From Candidatus Zambryskibacteria bacterium RIFCSPHIGHO2_01_FULL_46_25 (GTDB lineage: Bacteria; Patescibacteriota; Minisyncoccia; Phycocordibacterales; Zambryskibacteraceae), in the NCBI GenBank assembly GCA_001825155.1, contig MHVH01000005.1, forward strand, positions 3,528-67,527: DNA of 64,000 nt, given 5' to 3'. Position numbers and translations under genes: made by a program. The first letter of the stretch is position 1, and the number at the start of each line of letters is the position of its first letter. The notes under the pieces are model-generated. The model ran no database searches. It was not told the origin of the DNA and was given only the letters and a program-made list of their open reading frames with translations. Of this stretch, positions 52,900 through 56,050 are shown piece after piece.

Positions 52900-54261
52900 A
52901 TGACACTCAAGCTTCACAATACTTTGACGGGCAAGGAGGAGGAATTCCACCCGATAGAGAAAAGCAAGACAAAGATGTTTGTCTGTGGGCCTACCGTTTA
53001 CGACTATTCCCATCTGGGCCACGGCAAGACCTATACCCAGTTTGACGTAATCGCCCGGGCACTAAGGTATCTGGGCCATGAATTGACTTACGTCGTGAAT
53101 ATTACCGATATAGACGACAAGATAATAAAACGCGCCACCGAACGAGGGGTGGATCCGGCCGCACTTGCGCAGGAATACGAAAAGGCCTATGTCGAAGATA
53201 TGCGGGCTCTTAATGTAGTGAATATAGATAAATACGCTCGCGCCCATGATTATGTGCCGGAAATAGTAAGTCAGGTAAAGCGTTTGATTGAGAATGGTTT
53301 GGCGTACAAAATCTCCGACGGTTATTACTTCGACGTAAAGAAATTCGATGATTACGGGAAGCTGTCCAGGAGAAATATTTTGAAACCCAATGACGCGGTT
53401 TCGCGCATAGACGAGAATCCGGAGAAGAGAAATCCGGGCGATTTTTGCTTGTGGAAATTACGCAAGAAAGGCGAACCATTCTGGTCATCGGAGTTGGGCG
53501 AGGGCCGTCCAGGCTGGCACATAGAGGACACCGCCATTACCGAGAAAGAGTTCGGAGCGCAATACGATATTCACGGCGGCGCCGTGGATCTCATTTTCCC
53601 GCACCATGAAGCGGAAATCGCCCAGATGGAATCAATCTCGGGCAAGAAGCCCTTGGTTCGTTATTGGCTCCATACGGGTTTTTTAAACATCAGTTCCGAA
53701 AAAATGTCTAAGAGTCTCGGCAACTTCCTCACCATCCGAGATGTATTGGCGAAGGGCGTTTCTCCCCTGGCTTTGCGCTATTACTTCCTCACCGCGCATT
53801 ACCGCACGCCCATGGATTTCTCGTGGGAAGCGCTCGAAGCGGCGCAGAACGCATACCGCAAACTCAAGGAGTTTGTTTCCACCCCCACCAGCCTCCCCCT
53901 TACCAAGGGGGAGGTGCCAGAGGCGGAGGGGGTGTATTTGGATGAATTTAAATCTGCGCTTGAAAACGATTTAAATACTCCAGAAGCGCTAGGGGTGGTG
54001 TGGAATCTTATCAAAGATGAATCAATCTTCCCCGCCAACAAGCGCGCGACGCTTCTTGAATTCGACAAAGTACTCGGCCTCGACCTGGAACACAATGAAT
54101 TTTTGAATGTGCCGCCGGAAGTCGTTGAGCTGGGTGAACAAAGACAGAAGGCAAAGGAGAATAAAAATTTTGCCGAAGCGGATAAGATAAGGCAAGAGAT
54201 CGAGAACAAGGGCTTCGAAATCCGCGACACCGAAGGCACGTTTATTATAATGAAGAAATAG
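52900..54261 (+). CDS. cysS: cysteinyl-tRNA synthetase
   Basis: MTLKLHNTLTGKEEEFHPI…MFVCGPTVYDYSHLGHGKTY (HIGH) and KMSKS. Confidence 0.9.
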   Translation: MTLKLHNTLTGKEEEFHPIEKSKTKMFVCGPTVYDYSHLGHGKTYTQFDVIARALRYLGHELTYVVNITDIDDKIIKRATERGVDPAALAQEYEKAYVEDMRALNVVNIDKYARAHDYVPEIVSQVKRLIENGLAYKISDGYYFDVKKFDDYGKLSRRNILKPNDAVSRIDENPEKRNPGDFCLWKLRKKGEPFWSSELGEGRPGWHIEDTAITEKEFGAQYDIHGGAVDLIFPHHEAEIAQMESISGKKPLVRYWLHTGFLNISSEKMSKSLGNFLTIRDVLAKGVSPLALRYYFLTAHYRTPMDFSWEALEAAQNAYRKLKEFVSTPTSLPLTKGEVPEAEGVYLDEFKSALENDLNTPEALGVVWNLIKDESIFPANKRATLLEFDKVLGLDLEHNEFLNVPPEVVELGEQRQKAKENKNFAEADKIRQEIENKGFEIRDTEGTFIIMKK

Positions 54262-54265
54262 AAAA

Positions 54266-54290
54266 GGTTCGACGTTGACAACGTCGAACC
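54266..54290. terminator. perfect palindromic hairpin GGTTCGACGTTGACAACGTCGAACC, terminator for the Cys-rich gene (minus strand) and cysS
   Basis: T-run follows on the minus strand. Confidence 0.65.
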
Positions 54291-54300
54291 TGCACGGCGG

Positions 54301-54558
54301 TTACTTGGTCGGGATAGGACAGGAGCAGTACTTCACTTTTTTGCTTGGCGCTCCCATCTTGATGCCGTGGCAGTGCGGACAGAATATCCGCTTGCACCTG
54401 TTGCACTCATGATCTTCAACTTCCCCGAGAATGCATGATGGACATGATCCCTCGCAGCCACAGCGATTGTTGGGATTTACCCCGTCCCACTCTCCGACGA
54501 CGACAGGGAATCTGTCTGTAGGATACTCGTATGTCAGCTCATCAATCTTAGGATTCAT
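54301..54558 (-). CDS. small Cys-rich protein (85 aa, 12 Cys), probable metal-binding
   Basis: CGCEGSCPSC…CNRCKRIFCPHCH…CSCP. AAGGAG SD. Preceded by the shared 65-bp upstream repeat. Confidence 0.45.
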   Translation of the reverse strand: MNPKIDELTYEYPTDRFPVVVGEWDGVNPNNRCGCEGSCPSCILGEVEDHECNRCKRIFCPHCHGIKMGAPSKKVKYCSCPIPTK

Positions 54559-54580
54559 TAGGAACTCCTTCCGCGGAATA

Positions 54581-54645
54581 CTCTACAATAATATTTAAAC
54601 TTCCGCAACTACATAATAACAATACGACCGTCGGCTTATTATGTA
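54581..54645. promoter_or_regulatory. 65-bp upstream repeat copy 1 (contains inverted repeat TACATAATAA-N…-TTATTATGTA)
   Basis: ctctacaataatatttaaacttccgcaactacataataacaatacgaccgtcggcttattatgta. Copy 2 at 55307..55375. Confidence 0.55.
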
Positions 54646-54692
54646 TACGATTTAAAAACGCTATAGCGTAGTTATTTCGTAATAAAACGAAT

Positions 54693-54721
54693 CGCCGGAC
54701 GTCCCATCGGGACGTCCGGCG
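54693..54721 (-). terminator. palindromic terminator after the 166-aa gene
   Basis: CGCCGGACGTCCCATCGGGACGTCCGGCG followed by a T-rich tract on the minus strand. Confidence 0.6.
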
Positions 54722-54734
54722 TGAAAAGAACAGA

Positions 54735-55235
54735 CTAGAGAAGTTGCTCCAGGCGGCTTGTCAATTCTCTCTCGACCTCGCAGAGCCCCCCGACTTCTTC
54801 ACGAATTTTCCTGGCGGCCATGTCGTCCATGACGTGAAAGTCGACGATTGTCCCAATCATCGTCGCCACGTTATGGACCTTCATCAACAAGTCCTCGACG
54901 TCTTCTGGTAGTTCGCCCGAAATCGGGAAGACCCCGAGGAAATCGAAGAGCTTGTTGACCATGCTGCGGTTGATCTTCGACACGATGCCGGTCATCGCCC
55001 GGTCAATATCCGTGTCCTGGTACGTTTCCAGGAGCTCGAGGGAAATCTCGATGTTTTCCCCGTCGAACTTGCGCTCGCCGGGCAGAACTCTCACGAAGTT
55101 CCTTCGTACTCCTGGACCGTTCGGGTCTGTTTCCTCCGGCCATTCCGTAATCTGGAGCTGATTCGGTATCTTCCCCAGTTCTTCCAACAGCCGGGCCAGC
55201 GCCTGAATCGGAACCCTTGTCTTGAAAAGAGCCAT
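54735..55235 (-). CDS. hypothetical protein (166 aa)
   Basis: AGGAGG SD. Monocistronic unit with its own repeat-containing upstream region and terminator. Confidence 0.45.
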   Translation of the reverse strand: MALFKTRVPIQALARLLEELGKIPNQLQITEWPEETDPNGPGVRRNFVRVLPGERKFDGENIEISLELLETYQDTDIDRAMTGIVSKINRSMVNKLFDFLGVFPISGELPEDVEDLLMKVHNVATMIGTIVDFHVMDDMAARKIREEVGGLCEVERELTSRLEQLL

Positions 55236-55306
55236 GCTGTCCTCCTGTAGGCAAAGCCTACCTGGAAACTTCGAGTGCGGAATTGCTCTCGAATGGACAA
55301 CCTAAA

Positions 55307-55375
55307 CTCTACAATAATATTTAAATATACGCAACTACATAATAAGCCGACGACCGTTTGCTTATTATGTAGTTG
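55307..55375. promoter_or_regulatory. 65-bp upstream repeat copy 2 (CAACTACATAATAA-N16-TTATTATGTAGTTG)
   Basis: ctctacaataatatttaaatatacgcaactacataataagccgacgaccgtttgcttattatgtagttg. Confidence 0.55.
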
Positions 55376-55402
55376 TGGCTAGGGAGTTACAAAATAAAAG
55401 AC

Positions 55403-55431
55403 CGCGCCCCTCGATGTTACTCGGGGCGCGG
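55403..55431 (-). terminator. GC-rich terminator after the 80-aa gene
   Basis: CCGCGCCCCTCGATGTTACTCGGGGCGCGG followed by TCTTTTATTTTG on the minus strand. Confidence 0.65.
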
Positions 55432-55457
55432 CTGAGGACTTCTTTGGCTTTTTCGCT

Positions 55458-55700
55458 CTACCTCCGGCGGGGAGAGCTGGTCAGTTGACGAACGAGCTCG
55501 CCGAAGGTGAAAGTTCCTGGCGAGTTGACCACCACCTCTTTGTCGAAAGTGATGTGGCAGATTTGGGCGACGCCAATCGCTCTTGAGCTGCCGAAGACAT
55601 ACCCGTCTTCTGTCAGCGTTTCTCGTGGGATGTGGAGCCAGCGGCTGACGTAGCTGGCTATCTCTTCTCGAGACGGGGTTCTTGTTGCATAATCGCGCAT
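55458..55700 (-). CDS. hypothetical small protein (80 aa)
   Basis: GGAGG SD 5 nt before ATG 55700 (minus). Confidence 0.35.
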   Translation of the reverse strand: MRDYATRTPSREEIASYVSRWLHIPRETLTEDGYVFGSSRAIGVAQICHITFDKEVVVNSPGTFTFGELVRQLTSSPRRR

Positions 55701-55776
55701 CAATACCTCCTGTTTTGCACCATGCCTTTTCTTACAATACTGCATTTTTATAATAAGTCAAATATAAAAAGGAAAA

Positions 55777-55800
55777 GAGCGAGCGCGTTAGCGCTCGCTC
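55777..55800 (-). terminator. perfect palindrome GAGCGAGCGC-GTTA-GCGCTCGCTC plus T-run (minus strand)
   Basis: Follows a possible 66-aa Lys/Arg/Pro-rich ORF (55788..55988, minus). Confidence 0.5.
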
Positions 55801-56050
55801 CTCTGCCGGCTTCCCCTCGGGATCCGCTGGACGGGCGGGTTGTCGAGCCCGTCGAAGCGGCTCCCGCTTCCCGGCCAGGTTGGCGCGGGACGTTTGGGAG
55901 GGGCCGGCTTTCTGGTGGTCTTCATACATGCCTCTCTTTTTATATCATACACCCAAATACTTAATTTGTCAAGTGTTATCTTATTCACAACTTAAACACC
56001 GTTTTCTGCCCATTTCTAGATTGTTTCTATAAGACTCGAACTGATACGAT

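What the first reader, a model, noticed from the sequence alone, without database searches (positions are those of the whole stretch)
54301..55988. Cluster of independently transcribed small minus-strand genes sharing a 65-bp upstream repeat; includes a 12-cysteine 85-aa protein
Between cysS and dnaB there are three, possibly four, small minus-strand ORFs of 85, 166, 80 and maybe 66 aa. Each has a strong SD (AAGGAG/AGGAGG/GGAGG) and its own GC-rich palindromic terminator (54266, 54693, 55403, 55777). Two of them are preceded by near-identical 65-bp elements (54581..54645 and 55307..55375). Each element contains an inverted repeat (CAACTACATAATAA-N16-TTATTATGTAGTTG) and has a conserved inner core (GACGACCG). 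Spacing to the start codon differs: the repeat lies about 13 nt from the ATG of the Cys-rich protein and about 70 nt from the ATG of the 166-aa protein. This argues for a cis-regulatory site such as an operator rather than part of the transcripts. The Cys-rich protein (CGCEGSCPSC…CNRCKRIFCPHCH…CSCP) looks like a metal-binding or zinc-ribbon module. None of these proteins is recognisable. Together they look like a co-regulated accessory module.
Basis: partly seen in the sequence, partly recalled or inferred. Interest (0 to 1): 0.6.

Follow-up and report, generated by a model that had tools for sequence, protein, structure and literature searches.

The report
Duplicated promoter block in small-gene islet
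Between cysS and dnaB of a groundwater Parcubacteria genome lies a variable islet of small genes in which one gene's own promoter, with a palindrome beside it, has been copied in front of a neighbouring cysteine-rich gene; that gene belongs to a rare undescribed protein family that always carries a conserved RNA leader predicted to hide its ribosome-binding site.

Summary
Four small minus-strand genes lie between cysS and dnaB, each with its own promoter-like site, SD and terminator. A 66-nt direct repeat (54580-54645 and 55306-55371, 86% identical) precedes two of them. The Cys-rich protein has 10 cysteines, not 12. The "66-aa" ORF is really a 45-aa peptide gene that is conserved in a relative.

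The repeat ends at the -10 hexamer. It consists of a promoter (TTGCGK-17-TAGAGT) and a palindrome centred 19 nt upstream of -35.

The 166-aa protein is not an orphan. It belongs to a rare Parcubacteria family of about 13 sequence clusters with no Pfam match. Several relatives carry it at the same dnaB/cysS site. Wherever enough upstream DNA was available, a family gene has the same promoter type and a roughly 70-nt leader. That leader has covarying hairpins and two anti-SD segments that pair with the SD, and it is absent from Rfam.

The Cys-rich gene received only a copy of the promoter block. The palindrome is not conserved in sequence across relatives, and no regulon or regulator could be shown. 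Protein functions remain unknown. The Cys-rich protein has a weakly FYVE-like 8-Cys spacing.

The parts
54265..54291 (.). GC-rich palindromic terminator between the convergent cysS and Cys-rich genes
   Evidence: I4: 13-nt arms, 100% complementary; terminator scan
54301..54558 (-). 85-aa Cys-rich protein gene. It has 10 Cys, spaced CxC-x3-CxxC-x9-CxxC-x4-CxxC-x14-CxC.
   Evidence: The homologue P0003 in L001 is 68-71% identical with all 10 Cys conserved. dN/dS is 0.19.
54559..54579 (-). Short 5' region of the Cys-rich gene (ATTCCGCGGAAGGAGTTCCTA) containing the SD AAGGAG. It differs at 1 of 21 nt in L001.
54580..54645 (-). Repeat copy 1. The -10 TAGAGT is at 54580-54585, followed by a 17-nt AT-rich spacer, and the -35 TTGCGG is at 54603-54608. 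The degenerate palindrome has arms at 54610-54619 and 54636-54645.
54646..54681 (.). Second palindrome, with a GCTATAGC centre. Palindromes with the same centre lie upstream of family promoters in L020 and L028.
   Evidence: (I3)
54693..54721 (-). Terminator of the 166-aa gene (CGCCGGACGTCCC...GGGACGTCCGGCG, then ATTCGTTTT). A similar terminator occurs in L020 and L026.
54735..55235 (-). 166-aa gene. It is a member of a rare Parcubacteria protein family with the motifs VRILPGDRKFDGE and LxDxLGIFPR.
55236..55305 (-). Structured 5' leader of the 166-aa gene: a predicted three-way junction with two covarying hairpins. GUCC and UCC segments pair with the SD AGGAGGAC.
   Evidence: (-30.5 kcal/mol, z -4.0)
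55306..55375 (-). Repeat copy 2. The -10 TAGAGT is at 55306-55311 and the -35 TTGCGT at 55329-55334. The 44-nt palindrome at 55332-55375 has 16-nt perfect arms.
   Evidence: D1, I2; z -6.25
55401..55432 (-). Terminator of the 80-aa gene
   Evidence: -24.4 kcal/mol, z -4.35, U-rich tail
55458..55700 (-). 80-aa ORF, found only in this species. It has the SD AGGAGG, a promoter-like site at 55734-55761 and its own terminator, but no comparative support.
55788..55925 (-). 45-aa Pro/Arg/Lys-rich peptide gene. Its terminator at 55773-55804 overlaps the 3' end, and a promoter-like site TTGACA-17-TATGAT lies at 55944-55972.

Best explanation
The cysS-dnaB interval of this Parcubacteria (Candidatus Zambryskibacteria-like) genome is a lineage-variable islet of small genes that are transcribed independently.

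Its anchor is the 166-aa gene. This gene belongs to a rare, fast-evolving protein family that travels as a self-contained expression cassette. The cassette consists of:
- a characteristic promoter, TTGCNN-17-TAKWGT, with a conserved AT-rich spacer (..TTTAAATATTATTG);
- a roughly 70-nt 5' leader that folds into a three-way junction in which two anti-SD segments (GUCC and UCC) pair with the Shine-Dalgarno AGGAGGAC;
- the ORF;
- a GC-rich terminator.

The 66-nt repeat is the non-transcribed part of that cassette. It holds the promoter and a palindrome centred 19 nt upstream of the -35 hexamer, at about -54. A second copy sits in front of the Cys-rich gene and is joined to a short unstructured leader. 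This copy probably remains from a tandem cassette duplication of the kind still seen in relative L020, with the paralogous ORF replaced.

Inferred consequences:
- Both genes receive the same transcriptional input. The palindrome is a candidate site for a dimeric DNA-binding protein.
- Only the 166-aa protein is additionally gated at translation initiation by its SD-occluding leader.

Shown: the repeat; the promoter conservation; family membership and synteny; leader conservation and hairpin covariation; purifying selection on the Cys-rich and peptide genes.

Inferred: promoter activity and transcription start; SD occlusion in vivo; any protein binding to the palindrome; the duplication history; all protein functions.
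For: Repeat:
- The 66-nt repeat is 86% identical, and its cores are unique to these two sites in 64 kb.
- Read on the coding strand, similarity ends at the -10 hexamer.

Promoter:
- The same -35/-10 and spacer stand upstream of family genes in L023, L021, L026, L027, L020b and L029.
- The motif is not generic in the window.

Family and synteny:
- Full HMMER search finds 18 hits. About 13 are small proteins of 83-177 aa that share two motifs.
- The long hits are repeat-protein artefacts.
- The family gene lies between dnaB and cysS in L023-L025 and probably in L021, and next to a convergent cysS in the P0009 contig and L026.
- It lies in other contexts in L028, L029 and L047.

Leader:
- The RNAalifold consensus has 21 pairs.
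- The covariance model built from 6 sequences finds the leader at 67-83 bits upstream of three family genes that were not in the training set and that sit in other genomic contexts.
- It matches only once in the 64-kb window.
- 93% of cells are paired against 37-59% when partners are slid. Six pairs show double changes. 0 of 500 shuffles reach the covariation score.
- One-nt indels among the leaders argue against a coding constraint.

Tandem duplication precedent:
- L020 carries two paralogues, each with its own promoter and leader.
- The order terminator, then ATTCGTTTT, then GCTATAGC palindrome, then promoter is shared by L020 and the window.

Palindromes:
- Palindrome centres lie exactly 19 nt 5' of -35 in both window copies, in L020b and in L028.

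Genes are real:
- dN/dS is 0.19 for the Cys-rich gene and 0.19 for the peptide gene.
Against: - There are no transcript data, so the promoter, the transcription start and the leader boundaries are predictions.
- Helix 1 and the base of helix 3, which are the SD pairings, are invariant. They are supported by conservation and thermodynamics only, not by covariation.
- Folding z-scores are modest in several members, from -1.0 to -2.1.
- The leader sequences come from few, related genomes, so phylogenetic inertia inflates the shuffle statistics.
- The palindromes differ in sequence between lineages. They are absent where a terminator abuts the promoter (L021, L026, L027), and the left arm is missing in L001.
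- There is no residual similarity between the Cys-rich gene and the family, so 'replacement of a paralogue' is only a scenario.
- The rest of the source genome could not be searched, because both public-collection scans returned only chance hits.
Confidence: 0.6

Rival explanations
1. The 44-nt palindrome is the functional core: an operator for a dedicated dimeric transcription factor that co-regulates the Cys-rich and 166-aa genes as a small regulon. The promoter similarity is secondary.
For: - Copy 2 has perfect 16-nt arms, and the fold z-score is -6.25.
- The palindrome is present in both copies.
- Its centre is exactly 19 nt 5' of -35, as for the unrelated palindromes in L020b and L028. 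This suggests a conserved position for a binding site with co-evolving specificity.
Against: - The arms are degraded to 10 nt in copy 1.
- The left arm is absent in L001, while the promoter and short leader there are nearly identical.
- Sequence is not conserved in any other relative.
- There are no other sites in 64 kb.
- No regulator gene lies in the islet, and none of the four proteins matches a DNA-binding family.
Confidence: 0.25
2. The repeat is only a scar of recombination. Tandem duplication or gene conversion between adjacent cassettes left it, and palindromes act as breakpoints. The palindrome has no regulatory role, and the two promoters are simply constitutive.
For: - Tandem paralogues occur in L020.
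- The roughly 1.13-kb indel relative to L001 ends inside the palindrome of copy 1.
- Palindrome sequence is not conserved between lineages.
Against: - The promoter part is identical over 20 nt in three copies from two species that are only about 80% identical overall. That indicates selection on the promoter.
- The fixed 19-nt offset of palindrome centres in four promoters is unlikely for random scars.
Confidence: 0.3
3. The islet is a mobile or cassette-type element carrying cargo genes. It could be integron-like, a MITE, or a phage or plasmid remnant, with the inverted repeats acting as recombination sites.
For: - The small genes are co-oriented and separated by inverted repeats.
- Gene content varies between relatives.
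Against: - There is no composition anomaly.
- No integrase, transposase or tRNA lies nearby.
- Every gene has its own promoter and terminator, unlike integron cassettes.
- No homologue was found in viral contigs, phage records or plasmids or in PHROGs or PADLOC.
- The family gene is syntenic across relatives.
Confidence: 0.05

Closest known systems
SD-occluding 5' leaders: RNA thermometers of the ROSE and fourU type, and translational riboswitches or autoregulatory ribosomal-protein leaders. This comparison rests on established knowledge; Rfam was searched.
   Same: A short 5' UTR with hairpins in which the Shine-Dalgarno is base-paired. It is conserved together with the downstream gene. The stems covary.
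   Different: There is no Rfam 15 match at E<=1. The architecture differs: a three-way junction in which two separate anti-SD segments (GUCC, UCC) pair side by side with one SD. The loops are not conserved, and no ligand, temperature or protein dependence is known. The downstream gene is an uncharacterised family, not a heat-shock or ribosomal protein gene.
Promoter duplication through tandem gene duplication or gene conversion
   Same: The direct repeat of the promoter region flanks one gene unit, with 726 nt start-to-start spacing. Relative L020 has true tandem paralogues, each with the same promoter and leader.
   Different: In this window the second promoter copy drives an unrelated Cys-rich ORF, and the leader was not copied.
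FYVE and other binuclear (cross-brace) RING-like treble-clef zinc fingers. The class is described in PMC4506424, which cites Burroughs et al. 2011 for prokaryotic members.
   Same: The spacing CxxC-x9-CxxC-x4-CxxC-x14-CxC and the signature H-x-C-x2-C-x3-F-C-x2-C match. The best PDB hits of both homologues are FYVE domains: EEA1 and ZFYVE19. Similarity exceeds Cys-fixed shuffles, at 11/2000 and 25/2000.
   Different: E-values are not significant (0.02-2). There is no Pfam FYVE hit. The FYVE-defining basic motif R(R/K)HHCR and the WxxD and RVC motifs are absent. The last pair is CxC, not CxxC. There are two extra N-terminal Cys. The structure model is unusable, with pLDDT 40.
Integron gene-cassette arrays
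   Same: An array of small, co-oriented, unrelated ORFs separated by imperfect inverted repeats, with content that varies between relatives.
   Different: There is no intI and no attC core sites. Each gene has its own promoter and terminator. There are only two repeat copies. The flanks are housekeeping genes in conserved synteny.

Membership tests
Operator-defined regulon (transcription-factor binding site) | Inverted-repeat site at a fixed position relative to the promoter | tested here: met
   The palindrome centre is 19 nt 5' of -35 in both window copies.
Operator-defined regulon (transcription-factor binding site) | Site sequence conserved at orthologous promoters in relatives | tested here: not met
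   The left arm is missing in L001. No similar palindrome exists in L021, L023, L026 or L027. L020b and L028 carry different palindromes.
Operator-defined regulon (transcription-factor binding site) | Further sites elsewhere in the genome, and a cognate regulator | tested here: inconclusive
   There are only two sites in 64 kb. The source genome was not present in the scanned collections. No DNA-binding domain was found in the islet proteins.
Sigma-70-type promoter | -35 and -10 hexamers at 17-nt spacing upstream of the SD and ATG, conserved in relatives | tested here: met
   TTGCGK-17-TAGAGT in the window, and TTGCNN-17-TAKWGT in 8 of the 10 aligned promoters; L029 has TTGACT-17-TATTGT, and the spacing in L028 is ambiguous. 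The consensus scan did not list the window sites, because the hexamers fall below its 9/12 cut-off. Activity was not tested.
Structured cis-regulatory RNA leader that occludes the SD | Conserved secondary structure supported by compensatory changes | tested here: met
   93% of cells paired, 6 pairs with double changes, 0/500 shuffles, and slid controls at 37-59%. The model detects members it was not trained on at 67-83 bits.
Structured cis-regulatory RNA leader that occludes the SD | SD base-paired in the conserved structure | tested here: inconclusive
   This is predicted in the consensus and in most single-sequence MFE folds. These pairs are invariant, so there is no covariation.
Structured cis-regulatory RNA leader that occludes the SD | Switching in response to temperature, a ligand or a protein | not testable with these tools
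   This needs probing or reporter experiments.
Any Rfam 15 family | Covariance-model match | tested here: not met
   Only three chance-level matches (E 0.018-0.48, far below the gathering scores), and none on the leader.
FYVE zinc finger | Eight Cys in cross-brace spacing | tested here: met
   C39/C42, C52/C55, C60/C63 and C78/C80 are all conserved in P0003. This is spacing only; no structure is available.
FYVE zinc finger | WxxD, R(R/K)HHCR and RVC motifs (phosphoinositide pocket), and a significant profile match | tested here: not met
   The sequence reads EDHECNRC and KYCSC. There is no Pfam hit at E<=10. PDB E-values are 0.02-2.
Integron cassette array | intI integrase, attC sites and promoterless cassettes | tested here: not met
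   The flanking genes are cysS, dnaB, recR and an S41 peptidase gene. Each gene has its own promoter and terminator.
Phage, plasmid or defence-system genes | Homologues in viral, plasmid or defence libraries | tested here: not met

The most novel reading that the evidence does not exclude
The unit palindrome - promoter - SD-occluding leader - fast-evolving ~165-aa ORF - terminator may be a previously undescribed, self-contained and self-duplicating regulatory cassette of Parcubacteria. Its leader would be a true sensor: a new riboswitch or thermosensor, or the autoregulatory binding site of its own protein. Its promoter block could be donated to new genes, such as the FYVE-like cross-brace zinc-finger protein. 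That would make the dnaB-cysS junction a nursery for new, tightly controlled effector or conflict genes in these episymbionts.
Probability: 0.15. Interest if true: 0.6.

Novelty: new member of a known kind. Interest (0 to 1): 0.4.

Why it matters
Gene regulation in Candidate Phyla Radiation bacteria is almost unknown, and most of their small proteins have no annotation. This locus offers three things:
- a concrete, testable promoter type;
- a new conserved leader RNA, absent from Rfam, that probably gates translation and is strictly linked to one protein family;
- an example of a promoter block being reused for a neighbouring new gene.

If the leader proves to be a sensor or an autoregulatory site, it would be one of the few cis-regulatory RNAs defined in Parcubacteria. 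It would also give a handle on the function of the family. As it stands, the finding is a tidy but modest piece of comparative genomics in a rare lineage.

Tried and rejected
1. Regulon test. Scans of genome contigs and metagenome contigs with the invariant 20-mer TTTAAATATTATTGTAGAGT returned only unrelated chance hits (Reinekea, Ignavibacteria and others).
2. Structure prediction. I ran it before the family was found, on a single sequence or a 2-row alignment.
3. Pfam, NCBIfam, PHROGs and PADLOC for all four proteins gave nothing, apart from isolated sub-threshold single hits. Pfam on all 14 family members gave no consistent hit.
4. A PDB profile search of the family gave only noise: I-MsoI at E 0.04.
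5. The long representative hits P0014, P0016, P0017 and P0021 were rejected as repeat or low-complexity artefacts (ankyrin, Big_9).
6. Rfam on the region gave no credible match.
7. Viral-contig scans with both protein families and with the leader 3' motif were negative. R1 scores were <=20 bits, which the seeded 17-mer explains.
8. tblastn of the 166-aa protein against phage and plasmid records found no match.
9. A search for a degraded family paralogue under the Cys-rich gene, or elsewhere in the window, found none.
10. Population polymorphism gave no information. Ten strain contigs are identical over the 1.8-kb islet, apart from one SNP.
11. A coding uORF in the leader was rejected because of 1-nt indels among homologues.
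Full report
**Organism and setting.** Exact matches to the proteins are named by NCBI as hypothetical proteins of 'Candidatus Zambryskibacteria bacterium RIFCSPHIGHO2_12_F…' and 'Parcubacteria group bacterium GW2011_GWA1_47_10'. The flanks are housekeeping genes: the S41 peptidase gene and cysS on one side, dnaB, recR and the L21 gene on the other. GC content shows no anomaly across the islet. The only tRNA gene in the window is far away. Ten contigs from different samples are identical over the 1.8-kb islet, apart from one SNP.

**Check of the observation.**
- The minus-strand ORFs of 85, 166 and 80 aa are present at the stated coordinates.
- The repeat is real. It is 66 nt long, at 54580-54645 and 55306-55371, and 86% identical.
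- Its 20-nt and 14-nt cores occur only at these sites in the window. 0 of 100 dinucleotide-preserving shuffles reach those counts.
- Three terminators were found by the scan. The fourth, at about 55401-55432, has a 12-nt loop that the scan does not allow. It folds at -24.4 kcal/mol (z -4.35) and is followed by a U-tract.
- The Cys-rich protein has 10 cysteines, not 12.
- The perfect palindrome exists only in copy 2, with 16-nt arms at 55332-55347 and 55360-55375. Copy 1 keeps 10-nt arms.
- The repeat ends 21 nt from the ATG of the Cys-rich gene, not 13 nt.
- The '66-aa' ORF should be read from ATG 55925, giving 45 aa.

**What the repeat is.** Read on the coding (minus) strand, each copy runs palindrome, then TTGCG(T/G), then a 17-nt AT-rich spacer (..TTTAAATATTATTG), then TAGAGT. 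Similarity between the copies stops immediately after TAGAGT. The repeat is therefore the non-transcribed promoter region.
- Downstream of copy 1 lie 21 nt that contain AAGGAG, and then the ATG of the Cys-rich gene.
- Downstream of copy 2 lie 70 nt of leader, and then AGGAGGACAGCATG of the 166-aa gene.
- The -10 motif is not a common feature of this genome. TTGYAKWGT occurs 4 times in 64 kb, against 2.2 expected.

**Relative L001.** L001 comes from GCA_040960095.1 and is about 80% identical at the nucleotide level in dnaB.
- Its gene order is dnaB, then a 46-aa peptide gene, a terminator, the promoter block, a 78-aa Cys-rich gene, a terminator, and cysS.
- The 80-aa and 166-aa genes are absent. 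The window has about 1.13 kb extra. The right-hand breakpoint falls inside the palindrome of copy 1, so L001 keeps the loop and right arm but not the left arm.
- From the -35 to the ATG the promoter block is nearly identical to copy 1, although the proteins are only 68-71% identical.
- Both shared genes are under purifying selection: dN/dS is 0.19 for each.
- All ten Cys are conserved.

**The 166-aa protein has a family.** The word-indexed search found only the protein itself. The exhaustive HMMER search found 18 hits.
- Four long hits are repeat or low-complexity artefacts.
- About 13 are proteins of 83-177 aa sharing VRILPGDRKFDGE.IE..LEL and R.M.DKL.D.LGIFPR. The C-terminal helical part is variable.
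- None matches Pfam or PDB.
- One member is named as coming from 'Candidatus Parcubacteria bacterium'.

**Where family members sit.**
- In L023-L025 the family gene is the only gene between dnaB and cysS.
- In L021 the family gene follows a 79-aa membrane-protein gene; the flanking ORFs there were not identified by Pfam.
- In the P0009 contig it follows a 59-aa ORF and converges on cysS.
- In L026 it converges on cysS.
- L028, L029 and L047 show other contexts.
- L020 has two tandem paralogues.

The family gene is therefore the ancestral occupant of this site. L001 probably lost it, and the Cys-rich gene is the lineage-specific addition.

**Conserved cassette.** Upstream of each family gene whose promoter region was recovered stands the same promoter type followed by a conserved leader.
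- RNAalifold predicts a three-way junction:
  - helix 1 pairs GUCC with GGAC;
  - hairpin 1 is UUCG, a bulge, 4-5 bp, then CGAA;
  - helix 3 pairs UCC with GGA at its base, with a 6-bp hairpin directly 5' of the SD.
- The strand AGGAGGAC, which holds the SD, is thus fully paired to two separate anti-SD segments.
- The window sequence folds this way at -30.5 kcal/mol, z -4.0. Other members give weaker z-scores, from -1.0 to -3.1.
- A covariance model built from six sequences recovers the leader at 74.5, 82.7 and 67.4 bits upstream of three family genes that were not used for training and that lie in unrelated contexts. It finds only one copy in the window.
- On the ten-row alignment, 93% of cells are paired, against 37-59% when partners are slid. 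Six pairs carry double changes. 0 of 500 shuffles reach the covariation score.

Caveats: the SD-pairing helices are invariant, so they rest on conservation and energy alone. The alignment was fitted to the model. The sequences are related to one another. One-nt indels exclude a coding constraint. Rfam 15 has no match for the leader.

**Palindromes.**
- The centre of the window palindrome lies exactly 19 nt 5' of the -35 hexamer in both copies.
- The unrelated palindromes with a GCTATAGC centre in L020b and L028 have the same offset.
- The window also carries a GCTATAGC palindrome (54646-54681) just after the terminator of the 166-aa gene. L020 has one in the same place.
- This supports the view that the downstream unit in the window descends from a second tandem cassette.
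- Where a terminator abuts the promoter (L021, L026, L027) there is no such palindrome.
- A binding site for a dimeric protein at about -54 is therefore plausible but not established. No candidate regulator was identified.

**The Cys-rich protein.** Its spacing, CxxC-x9-CxxC-x4-CxxC-x14-CxC, is preceded by a CxC. That spacing is typical of cross-brace binuclear zinc fingers.
- The best PDB matches for the profile and for each homologue alone are FYVE domains (EEA1, ZFYVE19), but E-values are 0.02-2.
- Similarity to the EEA1 fragment exceeds Cys-fixed shuffles, at 11/2000 and 25/2000. This is a post-hoc comparison.
- The motifs that define FYVE are absent, and Pfam gives no hit.
- The class is known in prokaryotes according to PMC4506424, which cites Burroughs et al. 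2011.
- I treat this as a lead: probably a small two-zinc (possibly three-zinc) finger protein, and not a FYVE domain.

**Other genes.**
- The 45-aa peptide is rich in Pro, Arg and Lys, and it is conserved. Its function is unknown.
- The 80-aa ORF has expression signals but no homologue outside the species.

**Mobility.** No homologues were found in viral contigs, phage records, plasmids, PHROGs or PADLOC.

**Verdict.**
- The finding is real and partly well interpreted. The shared element is cis-regulatory DNA, and the two genes probably share transcriptional input.
- The conserved core of the element is the promoter of a gene cassette, not an operator.
- The set of genes is not a conserved module.
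- The main regulatory feature of the locus is the SD-occluding leader of the 166-aa family.
- This is new as a family and as an RNA motif, but it is of a known kind.

Noticed in passing
window 55981-55989 (+), in the dnaB upstream region: TTATTCACA matches the DnaA-box consensus TTATNCACA (consensus recalled from general knowledge). It sits in a block (about 55968-56030) that is almost identical in relative L001. It may be a DnaA-controlled dnaB promoter, or it may be chance.
   Followed up: no
L001 2533-3400 versus window about 52960-53795 (cysS): The central part of cysS in L001 cannot be aligned to the window at the nucleotide level, while both ends are 73-81% identical. Overall aa identity is only 55%. 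The gene looks mosaic, which suggests recombination or replacement of the catalytic core.
   Followed up: partly
L001 1454-1550: L001 has an extra segment of about 75-95 nt between the conserved dnaB-proximal block and the promoter of the small peptide gene. It includes the inverted repeat CTTCAGG...CCTGAAG.
   Followed up: no
L021 300-345: A non-family 79-aa membrane-protein gene upstream of the family gene uses a similar -10 region (ATTATTGTAGAGT) and a short leader, like the Cys-rich gene in the window. This may be a second case of promoter-block reuse.
   Followed up: partly
window 54693-54721; L020 547-577; L026 ~101-130: The terminator of the family gene (CCGGACG.CCC...GGG.CGTCCGGCG followed by ATTCGTTT) is itself conserved across relatives. 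In L026 it ends an upstream ORF that may be another tandem paralogue.
   Followed up: no
L003 4298-5639; L005 4143-5361: In some assemblies of the same strain, cysS or the S41 peptidase gene is split into two ORFs. These are probably assembly or sequencing frameshifts rather than biology.
   Followed up: no
window 55788-55925 (-): The 45-aa conserved peptide is very rich in Pro, Arg and Lys (KPAPPKRPAPTWPG...). It gave a weak, non-significant Pfam hit to a bee proline-rich antimicrobial peptide family, at E 0.43. Its function is unknown.
   Followed up: partly
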